A stretch of DNA of 63,062 bases, counting the filler. It is 5 parts of 5 records of this genome, joined end to end, with 100 filler letters (N's around TTAATTAATTAA, not from the genome) between each part and the next. Parts side by side here need not be neighbours in the genome. Positions count along the whole stretch, not along the records: positions 1 to 22,855 come from SRR2962707_671; 4 more parts are not named here. One strand, 5' to 3'. The notes beneath the pieces were generated by a model, which was not told the DNA's origin, did no database searches, and worked only from the letters and a program-made list of their open reading frames with translations. The stretch's first letter is position 1, and every line of letters starts with the position of its first letter. The translations under genes and the position numbers were made by a program. Shown here piece by piece: positions 10,709 through 57,329 of this stretch.

Positions 10709-11824
10709 TCAATAATGTTGATACTCAGCTATCTCTCCGGTCTCACTAGTCACTCTCATCGCAAGATGCCCTTTATCATCAAATTCGTAAGTATAAGTAC
10801 TTTGAGTGTTGGTTGTCTCTGTTTCTACTTTTAAGAACCCTAGAAGTGTATTCTGTGCCCGAACGGTTGGGACAACTTCATATGGATAGCTATTGGGTTT
10901 GTCGATATAGTCCCCATATGTTCTGGTAGAAATCCATTTAAAATCATCCCCTTCCGGTACATAGGTAAGGATTTTTTTTAGGTTTCCATCAGTATTGTAA
11001 GTAAAGGTTAGTGCAACTGTGATTTTATAAGTTCCATCCTGCTGCAGGCTATATGTTGTCTTCTCTCCAATATTTCCAACTTCATCATAGGAATAGGTGT
11101 AATATGATTGTTTCACCCCATTTTGAAATCGTTCTGATTTTACAACTTTATTATTATCCCAGAAATAATTTTCATATAACATTTCATTGTAGTGAATGAC
11201 GGATAATTGCCCATTTTCGTACAAATAAGTGTCCGTTCCTGATTGGTAATGAATGCTCTTGTTCTCCCAATTAATTTTGTAAATACGGCCGAATTCATCG
11301 TATTCGATTGACCTGCTACTTGATACAATTCCTTGTGTAGAGGAGAACGATTTTAACTTACCATACATCTCATCATCGATCACTTTGAGACTAAGAACTT
11401 TCTTACTTCCTATCTCAAATGCCTCAGATACTTTGTCAATTTTGATGGTATAGACACGCTCCTCATCTGCCAGAATATTATCAATGATTTCGACAGTGAT
11501 TGTGGTCGATATGGCTCCCTTCTCAACAAAAAGGTCAATATTTCCAGAATCGTCCATATATGGAATGTCAATCCCATCTAATGTTGCCGATTGAACCAAA
11601 AGTGAAATCTCACCTTCACCCTGACTTGGATTGTCAAACTCCAGTACAATGTCTTTCAAACCATTGTTTTCTAAAACAATGATATCCTCACCGAATTCGA
11701 CGGTGACTGGTACAAGCTCTTCAGGAGTGGGTTTCGTATCCTCCTCCTTACATGAAATGATACCTACCATCACCATGATAGCCAGTATCTGCATATGCCT
11801 TGATAACATAAAAGTATGCCGCAC
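10709..11824 (-). CDS. Lipoprotein with Calx-beta-like N-terminal domain and Tyr-rich beta-strand repeat C-terminal domain
   Basis: Lipobox IISC followed by KEED; V.IIDN..D...VIDDE pattern; repeated YSYD/FTYN/YEFD..G motifs. Start codon uncertain. Confidence 0.65.
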   Translation of the reverse strand: MRHTFMLSRHMQILAIMVMVGIISCKEEDTKPTPEELVPVTVEFGEDIIVLENNGLKDIVLEFDNPSQGEGEISLLVQSATLDGIDIPYMDDSGNIDLFVEKGAISTTITVEIIDNILADEERVYTIKIDKVSEAFEIGSKKVLSLKVIDDEMYGKLKSFSSTQGIVSSSRSIEYDEFGRIYKINWENKSIHYQSGTDTYLYENGQLSVIHYNEMLYENYFWDNNKVVKSERFQNGVKQSYYTYSYDEVGNIGEKTTYSLQQDGTYKITVALTFTYNTDGNLKKILTYVPEGDDFKWISTRTYGDYIDKPNSYPYEVVPTVRAQNTLLGFLKVETETTNTQSTYTYEFDDKGHLAMRVTSETGEIAEYQHY

Positions 11825-11901: not shown

Positions 11902-12690
11902 TCACATCACTTTGTAAACATCAATGGTGTTGGCCTGAAAGTTTCTGCGTCTTAAACAGACCTCAAATCCCTCTCTTGAGCCTTCATCATTGGTGTTTCC
12001 TTCTATCGTGTGCATCCAGTCTCCTTCCACTCCTATCACAATACCTGTGTGCACCCAATCATACTGAGTTTTCATATTCAGGAAGACGTCCCCGGGTTCA
12101 ATGAGCTTAGGATTATTTCGCAGGTTTACATTCCGGTGTAAGCGCTTCTCCTTCAATCCATGATTACCCACCACATCGCAGCTATAGGAATGCGGCATAA
12201 TCTCAGTAAAGCGTCGGCCAATCGTCGATGTAGCCTGATCCAAAATAGTTTGCACAAAGCCCATGCACCAAGCCCACTCTTTTCCTTCATTACCATCCAT
12301 ATAGGCACGTACCCACGGACCTATATTTGAATTGTAGAGCTCCCGTGGAATGTTTTGCAAATGCTGACGGGCATAGGCCACAATCAGCTGCCTTAGGTCA
12401 TTTCCATCTATTCGGCTAAATGCATTAAACAGGGGACTTGATAATGTCCTAAACGTGTTTGGCCCGACGACTCCATCTATCTCCAGGTTTTTATGTGTCT
12501 GAAAATCCCGAACCACAGCTTCGGTTTGAGGACCATAATCCCCATCTACCGACACACGGTGAAACCACCCGGGATCGACAAAACGCCAGAGGTTCAACCA
12601 CTCCTGCACTTTTTGCACGTCATATCCTTTCGCTCCTACCTTTAGTAACTTCGAAATGTTCAGCTCTTTGATGTAGTGTTTCTTTATCAT
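11902..12690 (-). CDS. Peptidoglycan-binding domain + CHAP-type cell-wall hydrolase
   Basis: VDGDYGPQTEAVVRDFQ...LEIDGVVGPNT (PG_binding_1); AWCMGFV, HTGIV, TIEGNTN (CHAP Cys/His). Confidence 0.88.
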   Translation of the reverse strand: MIKKHYIKELNISKLLKVGAKGYDVQKVQEWLNLWRFVDPGWFHRVSVDGDYGPQTEAVVRDFQTHKNLEIDGVVGPNTFRTLSSPLFNAFSRIDGNDLRQLIVAYARQHLQNIPRELYNSNIGPWVRAYMDGNEGKEWAWCMGFVQTILDQATSTIGRRFTEIMPHSYSCDVVGNHGLKEKRLHRNVNLRNNPKLIEPGDVFLNMKTQYDWVHTGIVIGVEGDWMHTIEGNTNDEGSREGFEVCLRRRNFQANTIDVYKVM

Positions 12691-12694
12691 GGTG

Positions 12695-14404
12695 TTATTT
12701 TTTTAGTCGGTCTATAAATTCAGATACACTTGACTGCAATCGTGTCAGCGGACGAAGTTTCTCTTCATGAATTTGTTTTCGCTTAATTACTTTCCGTACC
12801 GTATCTATTTCGGTAAGCAGAATGGAGTCCCATGGACTTAGTGTCTGTGTAGCCAATTCAATCCATTTTTCCCGAGCTACCGAGTCTTTTAGAGGAATCG
12901 GTTGGTACCTGAACTTGCTCAGATTAAGTGTGCTGTCATATCTGGAGAGTGAAGCGCTATCCAGCGCAACCAATGATTCATTCCATTCATGTCGAAAATC
13001 ACCGGAAACAAACCAATCGGAATGCTTCTTTGTAACGGAGGTTGCCAGGTCGAATTCATTGGTGCGAAGGGTGTCTCTTGTTGCTACCAGTTGTATTATA
13101 TCGGTTGAGTCAATATGAAAAGTATCCTTTAAGATGTTCGCCATCCCCAGCGAATAATAGCTAAATGGATATTCCACTTCCAGAAATGAGAGCTTTTTCA
13201 AACCAGCAACAAATCGCCTGAAATGCTGCGTGAGCTTTTCTGCTTTATCGATGCTCACCGTATCAATTGTGCCGAGGTATTGCTGATACAGACTATCAAT
13301 GAAAACCGCCTCATATCGATCTACAAGGGTGTCAGCCTTGATGGTCGCCAGATGTAAATCATATGGATGCGTATGAAAAGAAACCTGTAGGTCCGGTTCA
13401 TCCAGTAACAGAGAGAAAAAATTCCGTAATGCTTCCACTCCATTTCCCTCGGCTCGTTTTACAATCTCAGCCCCTCGTGCCTGTGCTAACAGCTTCTGCT
13501 TACATTGCCTCTTTACTTCTTTGGCTTCTTTAAAATCCACATCGCCGGAGAACGAAACCAGCTCAAACCCCTTAACCTTTCGTTCGGGAATAAACCATGG
13601 GTTGATATCCACATCTAAAACAGTTGGTTTGATGCCGTAGAAATGAATCATCTTTCGGTCTTCCTCATACAGGAAGTTACTCTCGTCTAATTGGCCAAAA
13701 TCAAACCCGGCTCGTACCGAACCACGCCCGATAAACACAATGTTTTTCTTTTTCTCGCGCTCCAAATCCTGCCCCACCACATACTGATAAAAAGGAAAGT
13801 AGTCATACACAAATGCCGGCACATCGAGCAGGTAAGCATTCATCGCAGAGTCCAGCCTCTCTCCCTTAAGTCGGCTTGTTTTGTTTAGCCGCTTGTATTC
13901 CTTCTTAAAGTCCTTGAGCATGCGCTTGTAGATCGTTTGCTCTACATTCCCCACAAGTCTCCCCTCTTTATAAATTCGACTCATTTTGCGGGTTAGGTAC
14001 TGATTTCCCAGACAAGCAACAAATTCATTAAAGGTATTATTTGCAGGCAGATCAAGATGAAATTCACTATTTCTCACCTTTGATTTAAGTTCATTTTTCC
14101 TGCCCCTGTTTTCCCATATTGTGAAGGCCACTTCCTGCCAGACATCTTCAGCAAAAGTGGTCAGGGTATCTGACGGAAATTCGGTTAGCTTAAACTCTTT
14201 CCAGGAAGAAATCACCTCACCGTAATATTCTGCGGTGACTAGCTGTCCGATATCCCTTACTCCAGTTACCAAGTTGGCTGTCTGTTTGGTTCGTGCATTG
14301 GTGAACATCCCAATAGGATCCCAGAAAGTAAAGGCGATAATCGCTCCCACTACGATCACAATATCGAGAAAAAGCTTCCAGTTTTTAATCAGGAAATAAA
14401 TCAT
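12695..14404 (-). CDS. Membrane-anchored DUF4230-like protein with a large insertion and C-terminal extension
   Basis: N-terminal TM; VRDIGQLVTAEYYGEV and GRGSVRAGFDF motifs; AE.N...LRNFF helix. Confidence 0.7.
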   Translation of the reverse strand: MIYFLIKNWKLFLDIVIVVGAIIAFTFWDPIGMFTNARTKQTANLVTGVRDIGQLVTAEYYGEVISSWKEFKLTEFPSDTLTTFAEDVWQEVAFTIWENRGRKNELKSKVRNSEFHLDLPANNTFNEFVACLGNQYLTRKMSRIYKEGRLVGNVEQTIYKRMLKDFKKEYKRLNKTSRLKGERLDSAMNAYLLDVPAFVYDYFPFYQYVVGQDLEREKKKNIVFIGRGSVRAGFDFGQLDESNFLYEEDRKMIHFYGIKPTVLDVDINPWFIPERKVKGFELVSFSGDVDFKEAKEVKRQCKQKLLAQARGAEIVKRAEGNGVEALRNFFSLLLDEPDLQVSFHTHPYDLHLATIKADTLVDRYEAVFIDSLYQQYLGTIDTVSIDKAEKLTQHFRRFVAGLKKLSFLEVEYPFSYYSLGMANILKDTFHIDSTDIIQLVATRDTLRTNEFDLATSVTKKHSDWFVSGDFRHEWNESLVALDSASLSRYDSTLNLSKFRYQPIPLKDSVAREKWIELATQTLSPWDSILLTEIDTVRKVIKRKQIHEEKLRPLTRLQSSVSEFIDRLKK

Positions 14405-14991
14405 ATACCTACCTCCTCTTCTGTTATTTCCGGAATCAGCTCTCCCTTGTGAAAGTCAATGTATATCTCCTGATATCCCAGGGTACGAAGCAGATTCTGC
14501 AACATCAACCGGGTTTTCTTTTCAGTTGCTTCGATGATGTTCATGTGCTTCAGAGAGTTTCTGATATCGATCTCCGCATCCTGAAAGAAGCTCTCCTGGT
14601 CTTCAAGCGAAATTTTGTTTAAAAATGCATCAGTGGAAACGAGCGTATCCATTTCAAAAAGCTCTGCAGGATAGGAAAAGTTAATAACCTCCACTGCAGG
14701 CAACATGAGTGAAATGCTTTTTCCCTGAATGTCTACATCATCTTTTTGTAATTTCTCCAGATCAACTCCTGCTTTTACAATCGCTTTGGAGTGAGCAAGA
14801 AACTTTGCCTCATTAAGCTTTACCACCCAAAGCAATCGCTTTCGCTTTACTCCATAAACAATCTTATCAATGGTGAACTCGGTAGTTGCCAGCTTAGATG
14901 CTTTTTTAATCTTACCCACCACCAAGCCACGATCATCCTTGCAGGCTGTCAGCAAGACCATTAATGAAACGATATAAATAAGCCGCTTCAT
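14401..14991 (-). CDS. DUF4230-like lipoprotein
   Basis: Lipobox LTAC; KLAT.E, A.VKAGVDL, LP..EV, LLRTLGY..I.I.F. Confidence 0.8.
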   Translation of the reverse strand: MKRLIYIVSLMVLLTACKDDRGLVVGKIKKASKLATTEFTIDKIVYGVKRKRLLWVVKLNEAKFLAHSKAIVKAGVDLEKLQKDDVDIQGKSISLMLPAVEVINFSYPAELFEMDTLVSTDAFLNKISLEDQESFFQDAEIDIRNSLKHMNIIEATEKKTRLMLQNLLRTLGYQEIYIDFHKGELIPEITEEEVGI

Positions 14992-14992
14992 T

Positions 14993-15982
14993 TTACCCTT
15001 TCATTGGATCTACGGTAGAAAAATCTTCTTTACCTGATGCTTTTGGCTTCTCCTTCGTTGATACTTCTTCAGGTTTAGAAGATTGCATGGGATCCGTCGC
15101 TCCGGCAGGTGTTGGTTCTTCTATTTCCTTTTTCACCTGCTCTGCCATGGACGGTTGAGCCGGTTGATTAGTTGGTGCCCCTTCCTTTCCTGTCGGAACC
15201 GGTGCACCGTTTGGCCTGAGGTACTGTAACGAACGACTGCCAAAATAAAAGGCAATCATCATCAGAAAAGCAGTCTTAAAAAACTCATATTGATCCCAGA
15301 AAAGCGAACTGGAATCTATTTCATTGGTCATGCCAAAGCTCACAACCAGGAGCGCAATTGCCCCAAACAGCAGAGAAAAAGCAATCATTCCTCTCACGGT
15401 CCCATTCGGCATTCCAAATGTTTCGTCTTTATAGGGATTGTATTTTGGCTCGGCTTCTATGTCATCCGGATCATAAAAGTTCCCTTGCCGTTTGTCTTCT
15501 TTAGCTTGATAGATTTTGTTCCATTCCTCATCGGTAAGTCCAAGATTGACATTGTAGTAATAGACCGCCCAGATGAAATACGAAAGGAAGATACATGCCC
15601 AGAGTGTAACAATTCCCAGCGCGATGGCTTTAAAAACAGCCTCCTCTCCGGTGTTGGTTTCAAAAACCATCATCACCCCAAATGCACCCAGAGCCAATAG
15701 AATAAAAATAATCACCCGAATACCCCAGAAGAAAAACTTCGACATGGAGTCGGGCTTCTTCTTTTCTGTTGCCGTAGTAGATTTATAAAAAGCGAATGCA
15801 CCAATGAAGAATGCAAAAGAAACAATTACAGCAATGTGGCTGCCTAAACCTCCGATCCAGGGAGTACCAAAATACTCTTTGATTAGAAGCAGGAAAAAGA
15901 GAAAAGCAAAAGATGCAACCAGCCCTTTCAGCAGGGTTCGGTTGAAAAGCAGTTTATCACGTGAACGGAATAATTCAAGCAT
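14993..15982 (-). CDS. Uncharacterised membrane protein, about 6 TM, with a Pro-rich tail
   Basis: Six hydrophobic segments; GMPNGTVRG and IAFYFGSRS motifs; translationally coupled on both sides. Confidence 0.8.
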   Translation of the reverse strand: MLELFRSRDKLLFNRTLLKGLVASFAFLFFLLLIKEYFGTPWIGGLGSHIAVIVSFAFFIGAFAFYKSTTATEKKKPDSMSKFFFWGIRVIIFILLALGAFGVMMVFETNTGEEAVFKAIALGIVTLWACIFLSYFIWAVYYYNVNLGLTDEEWNKIYQAKEDKRQGNFYDPDDIEAEPKYNPYKDETFGMPNGTVRGMIAFSLLFGAIALLVVSFGMTNEIDSSSLFWDQYEFFKTAFLMMIAFYFGSRSLQYLRPNGAPVPTGKEGAPTNQPAQPSMAEQVKKEIEEPTPAGATDPMQSSKPEEVSTKEKPKASGKEDFSTVDPMKG

Positions 15983-16163
15983 TGCCCAGGGATTTGAAGA
16001 AGTTGGAAATGGATTTGATAATAGCTTTTACAAACCCGACAATTGGGCCGATCAAGCCAACCAACCATAACCATACATCCTCCAGCAAATCCGGACGATA
16101 GATAACCAGTATAATAGAAATAGTGATTAACGCAACAAGTATAAGTATGAGTGCGTGCCTCAT
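15975..16163 (-). CDS. Small 2-TM membrane protein (62 aa)
   Basis: Two hydrophobic segments plus a basic amphipathic tail; 8-bp overlap with the next ATG. Confidence 0.7.
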   Translation of the reverse strand: MRHALILILVALITISIILVIYRPDLLEDVWLWLVGLIGPIVGFVKAIIKSISNFFKSLGNA

Positions 16164-16242
16164 GAGGTTTAAGTGATTAGGTTGGTTCTTTAAATAGAAT
16201 CAATTTTTAACCTAAATCAAATACCCAAATAGTGGTATTTTC

Positions 16243-20225: not shown

Positions 20226-20738
20226 ATGAAACGACTTATCTACTTCGGCTTGTTAGCCGGCATTATTAACATCATCGGTTGGCTGGTATTGGATGCTATT
20301 TTTCAAGGTGATAGCTTTGATTTTTCTCTGGGGGAAACACTAGGCTACACGGCAATGCTTCTTGCTTTGTCCACAGTTTTTTTCGGAGTAAAATCGTACA
20401 GGGATAAAGAGCTCGAGGGTAAAATTTCCTTCAAAAGTGCCTTTCTAAAAGGGCTGATTATTGTAGCTATTGCTTCATTGATCTATGTGGTAGGATGGGA
20501 AATTTACTACCCTAATTTTCAGGCTGATTTTGGTGAGAAGTATAGTGCTTATCTGATCTCCAACCTCGAAGATCAGGGGCTTTCAAAAGCAGAAATCGCG
20601 GCTGAAAAAGCGAATATGGATGATTGGATGGAAAAGTATAAAAATCCACTCTATCGAATTCCAATGACTCTTATGGAGATTTTTCCTTTAGGTCTGATTG
20701 TGTCACTAATTTCTGCACTGATATTGAAGAGAAAGTAG
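20226..20738 (+). CDS. DUF4199-family membrane protein
   Basis: GVKSYRD....G.ISF..AF..G; 4 TM; ends SLISALILKRK. Confidence 0.85.
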   Translation: MKRLIYFGLLAGIINIIGWLVLDAIFQGDSFDFSLGETLGYTAMLLALSTVFFGVKSYRDKELEGKISFKSAFLKGLIIVAIASLIYVVGWEIYYPNFQADFGEKYSAYLISNLEDQGLSKAEIAAEKANMDDWMEKYKNPLYRIPMTLMEIFPLGLIVSLISALILKRK

Positions 20739-22845: not shown

Positions 22846-22855
22846 GGGGATTATG

Positions 22856-22955
22856 NNNNNNNNNNNNNNNNNNNNNNNNNNNNNNNNNNNNNNNNNNNNT
22901 TAATTAATTAANNNNNNNNNNNNNNNNNNNNNNNNNNNNNNNNNNNNNNNNNNNN
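22856..22955. other. Artificial contig spacer
   Basis: 44 N + TTAATTAATTAA (stop codons in all six frames) + 44 N. Confidence 0.98.
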
Positions 22956-36297: not shown

Positions 36298-36942
36298 ATG
36301 AAGATCACATCGCGCACACCTGACGTGACGGACATCGCCCAAAAGGGCGAGACATCAGTCGTAACCTTTGACGCCGCAGCGACAGAGCATGCGCGCGTAA
36401 CAGTGCATGAAAGCGTTGAAGATATCGCAAAGATGAGACGCAGCGGTACCGCTTTGGTGATCGAGGTGCGCAATGGTGAAATTATCTCCATTGAAGACTA
36501 CTATTCCTCCCCAGAAGAGATCACCATCTACTTCAGAGAAGACGATGGTGCCATTTTCACGCTGGAGCTTCTGTCCGCCGGAGGTTTCGCTCTGGTCCCC
36601 GCGAGCGAAGCAGTATTGGGCGGCGCAAGCCTCGCCGCGTTGGGCTTGGCCGGGGTTGGCGCTGCAGTAGCAGCTGCCAGTGCGGGTGGTGACGACGCCG
36701 CGAGCGGCGCTGCCGCTTCCCAAGACCAGTTAAACACGTTGAGCACGTTGAGCACGGGCACCGGAGGCGGTTCTACCAACAGCCGTATCATAAGCGGCGA
36801 TGCCAGTGACGGCGACAGGACCGCTTCCCAAGCAACATTAGACGCGTCGAACACCAACGATGCAACACCGGGGCTGACCGGCACCGTTGATGATCCTGCC
36901 GCCACTGTCGTTGTGACCGTCGATGGCATCGACTACCCCGCC
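36298..36942 (+). CDS. N-terminus of a large BapA/LapA-like Ig-repeat surface protein, 3'-truncated
   Basis: R.G..LVI....GE.I.I.DYY prefix, Gly/Ala hydrophobic stretch, first repeat TNDATPGLTGTVDDPAATVVVTVDG. Confidence 0.75.
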
Positions 36943-37042
36943 NNNNNNNNNNNNNNNNNNNNNNNNNNNNNNNNNNNNNNNNNNNNTTAATTAATTAANN
37001 NNNNNNNNNNNNNNNNNNNNNNNNNNNNNNNNNNNNNNNNNN
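36943..37042. other. Artificial contig spacer
   Basis: 44 N + TTAATTAATTAA + 44 N. Confidence 0.98.
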
Positions 37043-50166: not shown

Positions 50167-50723
50167 CTTGGGACCGTTTTGTAGAGGAGCACGGAAACAA
50201 TACTGAACAACAAGTTTGGAATCCATATCGCTACGATGGTATTCATGCTGCCAGCTTCTGCTATCGATTTGGCCAGTATGAAGGCAATGATGAACATGAA
50301 GGCGATGAGAAATCCGAGTGCAATTTGAAACCCTGTCCCTCTCCTTGACTTACGTGCCGATACAATCACACCAATAGCCATTAGTATGATTACAGTAAAT
50401 GGCTGCATGTACCGAATGTATTTTTCAATTTCATATAGAGGTACATCATCCGCACCTCTTGATTTTTGTAAAACAATATATTTGTTAAGTTCCGTCATAG
50501 TCATCGTTTCCCAATGACGATCCTTATTTGCAAAATCGCTAGGCGACAGTGCTAGTAGAGTGTCCAGCTCATCGCCTTCGCCAATGATCTCCCGATCGTC
50601 GAGTACGGATCTTTTCTGCCATTTCTTAAGTACCCAGGTTCTGGTTGTATCGACCCATTCTATCTGCCTGGCCGTAATCTTTTCGAGTAACTCTGTACCT
50701 CTAATTCGCTCCAGCGTAATGTT
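50163..50723 (-). CDS. LptF/LptG-family LPS export permease, 3' part only
   Basis: Frame open to the contig edge; RK.RRG.G..IA.G, WIPN; three C-terminal TM. Confidence 0.85.
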   Translation of the reverse strand, partial: NITLERIRGTELLEKITARQIEWVDTTRTWVLKKWQKRSVLDDREIIGEGDELDTLLALSPSDFANKDRHWETMTMTELNKYIVLQKSRGADDVPLYEIEKYIRYMQPFTVIILMAIGVIVSARKSRRGTGFQIALGFLIAFMFIIAFILAKSIAEAGSMNTIVAIWIPNLLFSIVSVLLYKTVPR

Positions 50724-50823
50724 NNNNNNNNNNNNNNNNNNNNNNNNNNNNNNNNNNNNNNNNNNNNTTAATTAATTAANNNNNNNNNNNNNNNNNNNNN
50801 NNNNNNNNNNNNNNNNNNNNNNN
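50724..50823. other. Artificial contig spacer
   Basis: 44 N + TTAATTAATTAA + 44 N. Confidence 0.98.
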
Positions 50824-55645: not shown

Positions 55646-57229
55646 TTAGTGTGGCGTTTGGCTGTGGAAAAGCGTATTTCCGTTCCGACATGCATGAACT
55701 TGACCTCCAGCGAACGCCTCGAACAGAGAATTCGACATGTGCACAACGTCAACTCCATTTTGAATGCATCCTTGCACCGACGCGCATGCCCAAGCAATTC
55801 CTACCCGGTAATATGCGAATAAATGAAAACATGCCACATTTGACAGTTTAGCGGTCCCAAAGGTAGACGATTGCCATATTTGCAACTGACCTTGACAGTC
55901 ACTAATGTCAAGCTCTCTCAAATGCTTGAGGGCTGTGAGTTCAGCGATGGCGGCGTCAGACAACTGCCAGCATCCAGACAGGTCAATAGAGCGAAGACGA
56001 CGGCAACCGCGCGCCAAGCGTGTCAGACCTTTGTCGGACACATTGATGCACTGGGAAAGTCCCCTGTCAAAAAGCACAGCGTACGCAACAGCTAATTCAT
56101 GATACTGCCAACAGCGGCGCCGAACAATGATTACTCTGCACAACAGCGCACGCACACTCGCTCAAGTTTTGCGCTATATGTGCCGATTGCTTCCAACGCG
56201 GCGTCGGAGAGTTTTGAGCACCTTTCCAACTGCACCTCACGAAGACTCCTACCGCGAGTCACAAGTCATGTCGAGATTACGACGAGCTCGCACACACGGG
56301 CAACACCCGTAGAAAGGAAAAACTGAAAGGCCTTTACATCTAAGCCAACGAACCCGCAGTGCTCAGCGATTACTCGCACCCCGTCATTGGTAACGCGGGC
56401 GCACCGGCTAATATCAAGCATGCGCAACGCTGGGCAGCCGGTCGCGATCGAAAGCAGACCTGAGACAGTTAGCTGCGACACACCTCGCGCAATCAGTCCC
56501 AGCAGCCGGGAGCACGACTCTCCAAGGGCCTGGAAACTTCTGTCCTCCAGTAGGCGACACTCAGAGACGTTCAGCCTATGCAAACCAGGTAGCTCCTCTG
56601 CCATGGCCTGCAATAGTTGCAAGGAATCAAAGCATAGCACGAGCCAGGCAAACGCAACTAGTGCTTGGTCCACATGTGCCAAACGACCGCAACGTACAGC
56701 CAGTGCATCGTGCGACAAGTTCACACAGAGAGCGACGTCTACATCGCGGAGCCCGGTATTGGTGCGAATGATGGCCGTAAGTGCTTCGTCCGTCAGTTGC
56801 TTGCAGCCGGCAAGATTGAGGACTTGCAGCGTAGAAACCTGTGATAAAGGTCATTGAATAAATATCGTTGGAAGCTAATGAAATACAAACGGGTAATCAA
56901 CAGCGTAATCATCAGCGCGCACCTCAAGATTGCGAAACTGGTGCGGCGGAATTTCGATGCACCGGCTGAGATTGAGGGCCCGAAGGGAGAAGCAGTTTTG
57001 CAGACCAGAAATGTCGTGCAACCTGCGGGACCCGGAAAGGTCAAGCTCCAACAATGCGAAAGAGTCCATGAGGGCAGCAGTATGCTCCAGCAGGCTGTCA
57101 TGCATGGTCAGATTTTCCATATGCTCCAGACATGCCACACTGCAACGAGAAAAAATACAGTCCCCGACACCCTTTCCATCAGTTGTGGAATGTGCGGCCA
57201 TCCGCGTTGCCCGAGCTACGTATCGTTGC
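55646..57229 (-). CDS. Eukaryotic multi-exon cysteine-containing LRR (FBXL/AMN1-like) gene, 5'-truncated
   Basis: Repeats L..L.LS.C..LTD..L across exons; GT-AG intron 56839-56922 restores the frame. Confidence 0.8.
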
Positions 57230-57329
57230 NNNNNNNNNNNNNNNNNNNNNNNNNNNNNNNNNNNNNNNNNNNNTTAATTAATTAANNNNNNNNNNNNNNN
57301 NNNNNNNNNNNNNNNNNNNNNNNNNNNNN
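57230..57329. other. Artificial contig spacer
   Basis: 44 N + TTAATTAATTAA + 44 N. Confidence 0.98.

What the first reader, a model, noticed from the sequence alone, without database searches (positions are those of the whole stretch)
11902..16163. Phage-free five-gene envelope operon resembling a lysis or holin-hydrolase secretion cassette
Seen: five minus-strand genes with 8-bp overlap, 1-bp gap, ATGA overlap and 4-bp gap. In order: 62-aa 2-TM protein, 6-TM protein ending a helix in FYFGSR, DUF4230-like lipoprotein, TM-anchored DUF4230-like protein, and a PG-binding/CHAP hydrolase with no signal peptide. No phage, integrase or tail genes lie on this 22.8-kb contig, and the operon follows ddl. 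Known: Gram-negative lysis uses holin + endolysin + an inner-membrane/outer-membrane-lipoprotein spanin pair, and type 10 secretion uses holin + PG hydrolase. Inference: an undescribed trans-envelope system for wall remodelling, protein or vesicle release, programmed lysis or antibacterial delivery, with the two DUF4230 proteins bridging the membranes. Best candidate in the window.
Basis: partly seen in the sequence, partly recalled or inferred. Interest (0 to 1): 0.75.

Follow-up and report, generated by a model that had tools for sequence, protein, structure and literature searches.

The report
Membrane-tethered cell-wall hydrolase envelope operon
This is a conserved, phage-free operon of marine Bacteroidota in which phage-type cell-wall-cutting enzymes are attached to two unusual membrane proteins and accompanied by two envelope proteins, probably to carry the enzymes across the inner membrane and open the cell envelope in a controlled way.

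Summary
Five tightly packed minus-strand genes lie at 11902-16163: g1 (2 helices), g2 (polytopic), g3 (DUF4230 lipoprotein), g4 (TM-anchored DUF4230) and g5 (PG_binding_1 + CHAP-like hydrolase, no signal peptide).

It is the Ekhidna version of a rare conserved module. g1-g2-g3-g4 keep the same order and strand in 70 of 70 untruncated loci from Cytophagales, marine Bacteroidales, Ignavibacteriota and KSB1. Flanks are not conserved; ddl adjacency is local.

The module has two forms. In this window's form, g5 is separate and g2's tail carries DPM motifs. In the other form g5 is absent. There g2 is fused at its C-terminus to muramidase and/or Amidase_3, and g1 is fused to a DUF5675 (C82-like) domain.

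A complex prediction docks g5 onto a DPM motif of g2 (ipSAE 0.78; best control 0.00). Charge distribution places both tails in the cytoplasm. g2, g3 and g4 have no phage relatives; g5 resembles a Myxococcus phage Mx4 endolysin candidate.

Best reading (about 0.45): a holin-like system that exports hydrolases tethered to its own tails, plus an IM/OM DUF4230 pair. Topology, translocation, bridging and physiological outcome are inferred. The scan had not seen this sequence before.

The parts
15975..16163 (-). g1: 62-aa membrane protein. It has a strong TM helix (res 3-21), an acidic turn (RPDLLED), a weakly hydrophobic Gly/Pro-rich helix (31-45) and an amphipathic C-terminus (44-60).
   Evidence: Homologues were found in 78 of 80 loci. 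In the other architecture the same N-terminus is followed by a coiled coil and DUF5675 in 54 of 54 long forms.
14993..15982 (-). g2: 329-aa polytopic membrane protein of an undescribed family, with a disordered, charged C-terminal tail (res 256-329).
   Evidence: No Pfam family at E<=0.01. 229 representative clusters in 1.84 billion proteins. Relatives are fused C-terminally to wall hydrolases.
15218..15637 (-). g2 conserved core (res 116-255): TM4, a long conserved loop (YNxNxG...NPY...TFGxPxGTVRG), TM5, and the short last helix FFKTAFLMMIAFYFGSRSL.
   Evidence: 31 invariant columns in an 80-sequence alignment. Helices in the AF2 model, pLDDT 78.8. Coordinates checked.
15086..15094 (-). Internal DPM motif of the g2 tail (D297-P298-M299), the predicted docking site for g5.
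   Evidence: The predicted interface is g2 res 295-302. The motif is present in 20 of 20 loci with g5. Coordinates checked.
15002..15010 (-). C-terminal DPM motif of g2 (D325-P326-M327).
   Evidence: P326 and M327 are nearly invariant in A3.
14401..14991 (-). g3: DUF4230 lipoprotein. Lipobox Cys17 is followed by KDDRG-LVVGKI.
   Evidence: Pfam 99.7 bits. Lipobox Cys in 74 of 74 orthologues; strict K-(D/E)2 or Q-A-(D/E)2 signal in 25 of 74, including this one.
12695..14404 (-). g4: N-terminal TM anchor (res 9-27) and a split DUF4230 core carrying a helical insertion (68-216). These are followed by a C-terminal helical domain (349-520) and a 45-residue terminal helix (524-568).
   Evidence: Pfam 42.5 bits. 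AF2 model, pLDDT 86.6. Found in 71 of 80 loci.
11902..12690 (-). g5: PG_binding_1 plus a CHAP-like Cys/His hydrolase with no signal peptide. A family-specific invariant N-terminus and the PLFNAFSR linker form the predicted DPM-binding site.
   Evidence: 38.6% identical over 93% of its length to Myxococcus phage Mx4 p76, annotated 'putative endolysin endopeptidase'.
16164..16242 (-). 79-bp ddl-g1 spacer, the likely site of the operon's own promoter (not shown).
   Evidence: Sequence. In other lineages the module has unrelated upstream genes, so it needs its own promoter. The sigma-70 scan does not cover Bacteroidota promoters.

Best explanation
The five genes form one self-contained envelope system. 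Its core is two membrane proteins (g1, g2) and two DUF4230 envelope proteins (g3, a lipoprotein; g4, inner-membrane anchored). Its working parts are endolysin-type peptidoglycan hydrolases made without any export signal.

The hydrolases are attached to the C-terminal tails of g1 and g2. In most lineages the attachment is covalent. In the Ekhidna form seen here it is non-covalent: g5 docks onto short DPM motifs in the disordered tail of g2.

Both tails are predicted to start on the cytoplasmic side, each following a weak last helix. I propose that g1 and g2 act like a cargo-tethered holin. On a trigger, the weak C-terminal helix and its attached enzyme cross the inner membrane, by flipping or through a local lesion. 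The enzyme then cuts the wall at that spot. The g3/g4 pair handles the periplasmic and outer-membrane step. The result is a controlled opening of the envelope, either local release or whole-cell autolysis.

Shown here: gene linkage, fusions, motif co-occurrence, intact catalytic residues, and absence from phages. Inferred: topology, translocation, g3-g4 contact, the trigger, and the physiological outcome.
For: 1. Linkage. g1-g2-g3-g4 share order and strand in 70 of 70 untruncated loci among the 80 best of 208 related stretches. The median spacing is -4 bp, and flanking genes are not conserved beyond family level.

2. Fusions. 51 of 76 g2 genes in these loci have long C-terminal extensions and no g5; all 10 of those sampled carry Muramidase and/or Amidase_3. 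Of 48 long representatives from a library-wide profile search, 31 carry Muramidase, Amidase_3, DUF5675 or Peptidase_M15_3 after the g2 core. 17 of 18 proteins that had shown no Pfam domain (16 of the other 17 long representatives among them) carry a phage family of unknown function, phrog_30036. 54 of 54 long g1 forms carry DUF5675. A preprint describes that domain as a C82-like lysin domain (passages read).

3. Complementarity. g5 occurs only with unfused g2. All 20 such g2 tails carry a [DN]PM motif. The 2 complete unfused loci without g5 lack it.

4. Docking. The prediction for g5 with g2 residues 280-329 gave ipSAE 0.78 in three runs, against 0.00 for the best of 3 controls. That mark was reached by 51 of 78 solved complexes and 2 of 108 mismatched pairs. 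The runs agree in at least 33% of contacts, and the partner's pLDDT is at least 39. The interface is g2 295-302 (ATDPMQSS) against g5 residues 1, 7, 10-11, 81, 88-93, 152 and 155. It includes family-invariant columns of g5 (M1, F91, Q152) and adjoins invariant E9 and A90, outside the standard domains.

5. Compartment. g5 has no signal peptide in 20 of 20 orthologues, and its Met1 lies in the interface. Mean K+R counts along g2 alternate 2.98 / 0.86 / 4.56 / 0.20 / long loop / 1.65 / 2.94, which fits N-in, C-in. g1 has basic ends and an acidic turn, followed by an amphipathic C-terminus.

6. Enzyme independence. Five known hydrolase types swap while g1-g4 stay constant, which argues for generic carrier and envelope roles rather than enzyme-specific regulators or immunity proteins.

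7. Precedent. A natural TpeE-family holin-endolysin fusion, and a model in which cargo bound to a holin's C-terminus is flipped across the membrane, are described in PMC9527704 (passages read).
Against: - No experiment, and no RNA data were found.
- The topology rests on the positive-inside rule only. The TM4-TM5 loop is net acidic, and the last g2 helix has only about 13 hydrophobic residues. A C-out topology, with the fused enzymes resting in the periplasm, is therefore not excluded.
- g2 has 31 invariant columns among sequences only 35-45% identical overall. That is unusual for hole-formers and hints at a specific ligand or partner site that this model does not explain.
- g1 and g2 match no holin family, and g3 and g4 match no spanin family.
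- The g5/DPM form is a single clade on the g4 tree (SH-aLRT 100). The motif-g5 co-occurrence is therefore one evolutionary event, not 20 independent ones.
- The docking test is uncalibrated for disordered peptides, the partner's pLDDT is about 40, and the alignments were not used.
- The window's g3 has a K-(D/E)2 surface-export-like signal, which would not fit simple periplasmic bridging.
- Solo DUF4230 genes in other Bacteroidota show no hydrolase neighbours.
Confidence: 0.45

Rival explanations
1. A resident wall-remodelling complex. Here g1 and g2 are simple anchors whose C-termini face the periplasm. They hold hydrolases at the membrane for routine tasks such as daughter-cell separation, wall turnover or making room for envelope machines. 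g3 and g4 act as periplasmic regulators or scaffolds.
For: The module is inherited stably within families such as Cyclobacteriaceae, with shared flanks. The fused enzymes would be directly useful in the periplasm. The last helices of g1 and g2 are weak, so an odd number of membrane spans is conceivable. The strong conservation of g2 fits a regulated partner site.
Against: g5 has no signal peptide in 20 of 20 orthologues, and its first residue lies in the predicted interface. The form in this window therefore still needs a non-Sec export step. The charge pattern favours C-in. The module is rare: 208 related stretches across the species genomes of the collection and 229 clusters in 1.84 billion proteins. 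It cannot be a general housekeeping function.
Confidence: 0.2
2. A programmed whole-cell suicide module. The same parts would be used for altruistic lysis, either as abortive infection against phages or to release DNA, enzymes or vesicles for kin.
For: The enzymes are endolysin-type and interchangeable, as in lysis cassettes. The IM-anchored protein plus lipoprotein pair recalls spanins. The module has crossed order and phylum lines, since both tree clades mix Cytophagales and Bacteroidales, and Ignavibacteriota and KSB1 also appear. A His_kinase/LytTR pair was confirmed by Pfam beside one locus, and related histidine-kinase genes lie in seven more.
Against: No PADLOC model matches. The flanks are housekeeping genes rather than defence islands. 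No sensor or nuclease is conserved in the module. Two-component adjacency in 8 of 80 loci is within what such abundant regulators could give by chance.
Confidence: 0.15
3. An antibacterial delivery system. The hydrolases would be exported and handed, through surface-exposed g3, to neighbouring cells.
For: DUF5675 is weakly related to the Tlde1 domain (E 4e-4 and 1.5e-3). The window's g3 has a K-(D/E)2 surface-export-type signal.
Against: No immunity gene is conserved, even though the enzyme types vary. The enzymes are tethered to inner-membrane proteins. The strict surface signal is present in only 25 of 74 g3 orthologues.
Confidence: 0.05
4. A decayed prophage lysis cassette left behind in the chromosome.
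For: g5 resembles Myxococcus phage Mx4 p76 (38.6% identity, E 1e-45) and matches endolysin PHROGs.
Against: g2, g3 and g4 have no relatives in 50,697 phage genomes or in IMG/VR pattern scans. All catalytic and core residues are conserved across orders. There are no phage genes on the contig. The position is stable within families.
Confidence: 0.03

Closest known systems
Type 10 secretion systems / phage-derived holin-endolysin-spanin cassettes (Serratia ChiWXYZ recalled from memory; Yersinia entomophaga lysis cassette and Salmonella T10SS seen as search listings and abstracts)
   Same: A small membrane protein, a signal-less wall hydrolase, and an inner-membrane protein plus lipoprotein pair sit in one tight chromosomal operon with no phage around.
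   Different: None of the non-enzymatic parts belongs to a known holin or spanin family, and none has phage relatives. A second, large and highly conserved polytopic protein (g2) is present. The hydrolases are physically tethered to the membrane proteins. The lipoprotein and IM proteins are 3-10 times larger than spanins and are DUF4230 paralogues. No cargo gene is conserved next to the module.
Natural TpeE-family holin-endolysin fusion of Clostridium sporogenes and the 'membrane-weakening and C-terminal flipping' model (PMC9527704; passages read)
   Same: The enzyme is attached to the C-terminus of a small membrane protein whose last helix is amphipathic or weak. This implies one cargo per carrier and transport without a large hole.
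   Different: That case is a single-gene, Gram-positive, phage-type holin. Here there are two unrelated carrier proteins and up to three enzyme domains, with a non-covalent DPM-docked variant. Two extra envelope proteins are present in diderm bacteria. Homology to TpeE was not tested directly; no Pfam holin family matched.
Lambda Rz/Rz1 two-component spanins (abstracts seen in the search listing: PMC6139136, PMC5295617)
   Same: An N-terminally anchored inner-membrane protein with helical periplasmic parts and an outer-membrane lipoprotein are encoded by overlapping genes.
   Different: There is no sequence or detectable fold similarity. g3 and g4 share a globular DUF4230 domain. The lipoprotein gene comes first. 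The sizes are 196 and 569 aa. g3 may be surface-exposed.
Myxococcus phage Mx4 p76, annotated 'putative endolysin endopeptidase'
   Same: A full-length homologue of g5: 38.6% identity over 93% of the protein.
   Different: It is a phage protein with no g1-g4 homologues detected in phages. Whether it has the DPM-binding surface was not examined.
Paceibacteria operon of a membrane-anchored two-headed wall hydrolase with a DUF4230 partner
   Same: It pairs a DUF4230 protein with a membrane-anchored peptidoglycan hydrolase.
   Different: I did not see its sequence.

Membership tests
Phage-type lysis cassette / T10SS | Holin belonging to a recognised holin family | tested here: not met
   g1 and g2 have no holin hit in Pfam, NCBIfam or PHROGs at E<=0.1. 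g2 has no relatives in phage genomes or IMG/VR.
Phage-type lysis cassette / T10SS | Endolysin-type peptidoglycan hydrolase lacking a signal peptide | tested here: met
   g5 has PG_binding_1 at 2.1e-14, endolysin phrog_9589 at 5.8e-13, and a phage Mx4 homologue. No signal peptide in 20 of 20 orthologues.
Phage-type lysis cassette / T10SS | Two-component spanin (i-spanin plus o-spanin) of a known family | tested here: not met
   g3 and g4 give no spanin PHROG or Pfam hit and have no phage relatives. Only the anchor types (lipoprotein and N-terminal TM) are analogous.
Phage-type lysis cassette / T10SS | Adjacent secreted cargo gene (chitinase or toxin) | tested here: not met
   No flanking gene family is conserved beyond family level in the 80 loci.
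DUF4230 (PF14014) | Score above Pfam's gathering cut-off (27 bits) | tested here: met
   g3 scores 99.7 bits and g4 42.5 bits.
CHAP (PF05257) | Score above the gathering cut-off (26 bits) and a catalytic Cys/His pair | tested here: inconclusive
   The window's g5 scores 22.8 bits, below the cut-off; orthologue L063 scores 29.3 bits. Cys142, His214, Glu230 and Asn232 are invariant in 18 of 18.
PG_binding_1 (PF01471) | Score above the gathering cut-off (23 bits) | tested here: met
   53.9 bits at residues 22-83 of g5.
TpeE/BhlA-type cargo-carrying holins | Short TM helix followed by an amphipathic helix, with the cargo at the C-terminus | tested here: inconclusive
   g1 has a TM helix, a second weak helix and an amphipathic C-terminus. 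There is a C-terminal enzyme fusion in 54 of 54 long forms. No sequence match to any Pfam holin family was found, and TpeE itself was not compared.
Bacteroidota surface lipoproteins (LES-dependent) | K-(D/E)2 or Q-A-(D/E)2 next to the lipidated Cys (abstract of PMC5080379) | tested here: inconclusive
   The window's g3 reads C-KDD-RG. The strict motif is present in 25 of 74 orthologues, and 42 of 74 have at least 2 acidic residues. Surface exposure cannot be tested with these tools.

The most novel reading that the evidence does not exclude
This is a previously unknown kind of envelope machine of the FCB group. Two dedicated carrier proteins hold folded, signal-less wall hydrolases on their cytoplasmic tails, either covalently or through a DPM docking motif. 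They move the enzymes across the inner membrane by flipping their weak last helices. A DUF4230 inner-membrane/lipoprotein pair then couples this to the outer membrane. The result would be a non-lytic, localised opening of the wall, which amounts to a new protein-translocation and secretion principle rather than a domesticated phage cassette.
Probability: 0.25. Interest if true: 0.85.

Novelty: new variant of a known kind. Interest (0 to 1): 0.7.

Why it matters
How folded, signal-less wall hydrolases cross the inner membrane without killing the cell is an open question for holins and type 10 secretion. This module offers a natural and very clear case for studying it. The same conserved membrane proteins carry at least five different known hydrolase types on their C-termini, and in one clade they carry a short docking motif instead.

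That makes the cargo-on-the-tail idea directly testable with peptides, point mutants and topology reporters.

The work also gives a first functional context to several uncharacterised pieces:
- an undescribed membrane protein family (g2);
- two DUF4230 proteins;
- DUF5675;
- the phage family phrog_30036, which is predicted here to be another wall hydrolase.

Finally, it points to a regulated autolysis or release route in abundant marine Bacteroidota.

Tried and rejected
- Whole-genome search: no genome is held for the window.
- PADLOC: no hit for any of the five proteins.
- Fold searches gave nothing informative. For g2, Foldseek PDB found nothing at E<=0.001, and VIA wide gave a best Z of 9.6 among generic helical bundles. 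For g4, Foldseek PDB and BFVD found nothing at E<=0.001, and VIA wide gave a best Z of 7.3. A ring-building-motif-like row (5tcr_b: Z 6.6, rmsd 2.2, 68 aligned) is within the noise band the tool describes, so I do not use it.
- PDB sequence searches found nothing for g3 or g4. For g5 they matched only the PG-binding domain.
- Protein atlas: only the proteins' own clusters came back.
- g1 'longer' homologue search: none scored. This is weak evidence, as the tool itself states.
- RNA: no RNA holder listed.
- General link between DUF4230 and hydrolases: DUF4230 occurs in 28 of 121 sampled Bacteroidota genomes. The 102 neighbouring ORFs scanned within about 1.5 kb include no wall hydrolase domain. 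I therefore dropped the idea that DUF4230 is a general hydrolase partner in this phylum.
- Enzyme-specific immunity or inhibitor role for g3/g4: rejected, because five enzyme types swap while g3 and g4 stay constant.
- Prophage remnant: rejected (see rivals).
- LytTR two-component adjacency as a conserved regulator: seen in only 8 of 80 loci, so it is not treated as part of the system.
- The sigma-70 promoter scan is uninformative for Bacteroidota: 20 sites found against 16.3 expected.
- Literature: searches for DUF4230, DUF5675 and holin-endolysin fusion terms found no description of this module. Subscription journals are outside the library, and bioRxiv supplements could not be seen.

Full report
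OBSERVATION

Domain searches gave the following:
- g3: DUF4230 at 2.1e-28, plus a lipobox.
- g4: an N-terminal TM helix, and DUF4230 at 9e-11.
- g5: PG_binding_1 at 2.1e-14, and a CHAP match just under Pfam's cut-off (22.8 against 26 bits).
- g1 and g2: no family at all.

NCBIfam, PADLOC and PHROGs add only endolysin-type matches for g5.

The window is a chain of contigs separated by N runs, the first ending at 22855. Its other 21 ORFs are ordinary chromosomal genes without phage functions. Close homologues at 95-98% identity are labelled Ekhidna sp..

A CONSERVED FOUR-GENE CORE

A pattern scan of one genome per prokaryotic species, using a g2 alignment, found 208 related stretches. I examined the best 80. 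I searched their ORFs with the window's proteins and counted the results:
- g1 in 78 loci, g2 in 76, g3 in 74, g4 in 71.
- All four together in 70 loci, and in all 70 in the same order and on the same strand.
- Median spacing of -4 bp.
- The 10 incomplete loci are all cut by contig ends.

Clustering of all flanking ORFs showed no further family shared beyond family level. ddl is upstream in only 7 loci. The carriers are Cytophagales (Ekhidna, Reichenbachiella, Marinoscillum, many Cyclobacteriaceae, Catalinimonas, Persicobacter), marine Bacteroidales (Draconibacterium, Marinifilum, Salinivirgaceae, Lentimicrobiaceae), a Melioribacteraceae MAG and a KSB1 MAG.

The family is rare. A profile search of 1.84 billion representative proteins gave 229 clusters at E<=1e-3.

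TWO ARCHITECTURES THAT COMPLEMENT EACH OTHER

In 20 loci, including the window's lineage:
- g1 is short (60-96 aa);
- g2 is unfused and ends in a disordered charged tail;
- a separate g5 follows g4.

In 51 loci g5 is absent and g2 carries a long C-terminal extension. All 10 such g2 proteins tested have Muramidase (PF11860), Amidase_3 (PF01520) or both. In these loci g1 is 200-300 aa long. 54 of 54 long g1 proteins consist of the g1 membrane part, a coiled-coil linker and DUF5675, with a nearly invariant His/Cys motif. A 2026 preprint that I read in passages describes DUF5675 as a C82-like lysin domain.

Of 48 long representatives from the library-wide search:
- 31 carry Muramidase, Amidase_3, Muramidase+Amidase_3, Muramidase+DUF5675, DUF5675 or Peptidase_M15_3 after the g2 core;
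- the other 17 showed no Pfam domain. Scanned against PHROGs together with one shorter protein (18 in all), 17 carry phrog_30036, a phage family of unknown function.

Two loci (L022, L038) have an unfused g2, no g5 and a DUF5675-bearing g1. So every complete module has at least one wall hydrolase, and that enzyme is either fused to g1/g2 or encoded as g5.

THE DPM MOTIF AND DOCKING

Unfused g2 tails end in a conserved x-D-P-M-x motif. Ekhidna-like tails have a second, internal copy: residues 297-299 and 325-327 in the window (coordinates checked).
- All 20 loci with g5 have a [DN]PM motif in the tail.
- The two complete unfused loci without g5 have none.
- Two further motif-bearing loci end before g5 could appear.

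A complex prediction of g5 with g2 residues 280-329 supports binding. ipSAE was 0.78 in three runs, against 0.00 for the best of three controls. That mark was reached by 51 of 78 solved complexes and 2 of 108 mismatched pairs. The runs agree in at least 33% of contacts, and the partner's pLDDT is at least 39.

The confident interface is g2 295-302 (ATDPMQSS) against g5 residues 1, 7, 10-11, 81, 88-93, 152 and 155. That surface includes g5 columns that are invariant across the family (M1, F91, Q152) and adjoins invariant E9 and A90, and it lies outside the PG-binding and catalytic domains.

Caveats:
- The test is not calibrated for disordered peptides, and it did not use my alignments.
- On a g4 tree the g5/DPM form is a single clade (SH-aLRT 100), so the co-occurrence is one evolutionary event.

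WHERE THE ENZYMES START

g5 has no signal peptide. The ORF begins 4 bp after the g4 stop, and 20 of 20 orthologues start with the same conserved N-terminus. That N-terminus is part of the predicted docking surface.

Across 80 g2 sequences the mean K+R counts of the loops are:
- before TM1: 2.98
- TM1-TM2: 0.86
- TM2-TM3: 4.56
- TM3-TM4: 0.20
- TM5 to last helix: 1.65
- after the last helix: 2.94

This is the pattern of an N-in, C-in protein. The 56-residue TM4-TM5 loop is acidic and uninformative.

The AF2 model (pLDDT 78.8) shows helices at 8-38, 46-70, 79-109, 113-145, 193-217 and 227-247. The last helix has a polar first half and only about 13 hydrophobic residues.

g1 has a basic N-terminus, a strong TM helix, an acidic turn, a Gly/Pro-rich weak helix and a strongly amphipathic C-terminus.

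The simplest reading is that all hydrolases, docked or fused, begin in the cytoplasm on tails that follow weak last helices. This is inferred and not shown.

WHAT IS NOT PHAGE-LIKE

- g2, g3 and g4 have no relatives in 50,697 phage genomes.
- Pattern scans of IMG/VR with the g2 and g4 alignments also found none.
- Only g5 has phage kin: Mx4 p76, with 38.6% identity over 93% of the protein.
- Within families the module is stable and the g4 tree follows genera. Both major clades mix Cytophagales and Bacteroidales, and reach Ignavibacteriota and KSB1, so older horizontal transfer is likely.

MECHANISM PROPOSED

g1 and g2 are carriers that hold endolysin-type enzymes on their cytoplasmic tails and take them across the inner membrane. 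This parallels the cargo-on-the-C-terminus flipping model that Brüser and Mehner-Breitfeld derived from a natural TpeE holin-endolysin fusion (PMC9527704; passages read).

g3 and g4 stay constant while the enzymes swap, so they are unlikely to be enzyme-specific inhibitors. Their anchors, a lipoprotein and an N-terminal TM helix, and their translationally coupled genes suggest a paired role in the periplasm and at the outer membrane. The g4 model has a split DUF4230 core, a helical insertion, a helical C-terminal domain and a 45-residue terminal helix (pLDDT 86.6). No structural relative was found.

The window's g3 reads C-KDD. This matches the K-(D/E)2 lipoprotein export signal defined in C. 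canimorsus (abstract of PMC5080379). Only 25 of 74 orthologues have the strict motif. Its location is therefore open.

COMPARISON AND NOVELTY

In logic this resembles holin-endolysin-spanin cassettes and type 10 secretion. It fails the membership tests for known holin and spanin families, and it has no conserved cargo. It differs in four ways:
- a second, highly conserved polytopic carrier;
- tethered enzymes;
- a short docking motif;
- DUF4230 partners.

I found no description of it in searches for DUF4230, DUF5675 and holin-endolysin fusions. The scan's own notes hold no look-alike sequence. One unchecked note reports a DUF4230 partner beside a membrane-anchored hydrolase in Paceibacteria. 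Solo DUF4230 genes of other Bacteroidota have no hydrolase neighbours.

VERDICT

I rate it a new variant of a known kind, interest 0.7, with confidence 0.45 in the tethered-export mechanism.

Noticed in passing
P0339-P0369 (distant g2 relatives): 17 of 18 long g2-family proteins that have no Pfam domain carry phrog_30036 where other members carry a wall hydrolase. phrog_30036 is a 234-position phage family of unknown function. By its position it is predicted to be an unrecognised endolysin-type domain. It has no PDB or NCBIfam match.
   Followed up: partly
L041 (PBTY01000090.1, labelled Rickettsiales bacterium NP5): Its module and three flanking gene families (clusters c67-c70) match Marinoscillum pacificum L045, and the two are sisters on the g4 tree. 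The contig is probably a Bacteroidota contig placed in the wrong bin.
   Followed up: partly
window 22855-22955, 36942-37042, 50723-50823, 57229-57329: Paired N runs separate the window into several contigs. GC jumps from about 0.39-0.47 to 0.57-0.60 after the first break, so the pieces may not be neighbours in the genome, or even come from one organism.
   Followed up: no
L011 12092-13883; L038 11332-14072; L063 4625-6562 and 12323-14539; L017 14491-16419: A TPR/His_kinase (PF06580) sensor lies next to the module, with a LytTR response regulator beside it in L011 and L038. The sensor family (c14) occurs in 8 of the 80 loci; the Pfam domains were confirmed for L038 only. The adjacency is not conserved across the family, but it may point to a local regulator.
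   Followed up: partly
window 10709-11824 (-): The gene downstream of g5 encodes a lipoprotein-like protein with a weak RHS-repeat match (E 8.8e-4). It is not conserved next to the module elsewhere. The GTG start at 11824 is probably too early, since a lipoprotein signal begins a few codons in.
   Followed up: no
G001:C1:3916585-3917040 (L083): The related Ekhidna genome has a third, solo DUF4230 gene (298-aa frame), lying between an acyltransferase gene and an SBF-family transporter gene. In other Bacteroidota, solo DUF4230 genes recur beside GSCFA and Biopterin_H genes or YbbR-like genes.
   Followed up: partly
window 20226-20735 (+): This is a DUF4199 (PF13858) membrane protein gene. The same family is pre-annotated on four g2 homologues (P0158, P0193, P0196, P0205). 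That hints at a distant likeness of the variable N-terminal helices of g2 to DUF4199.
   Followed up: no
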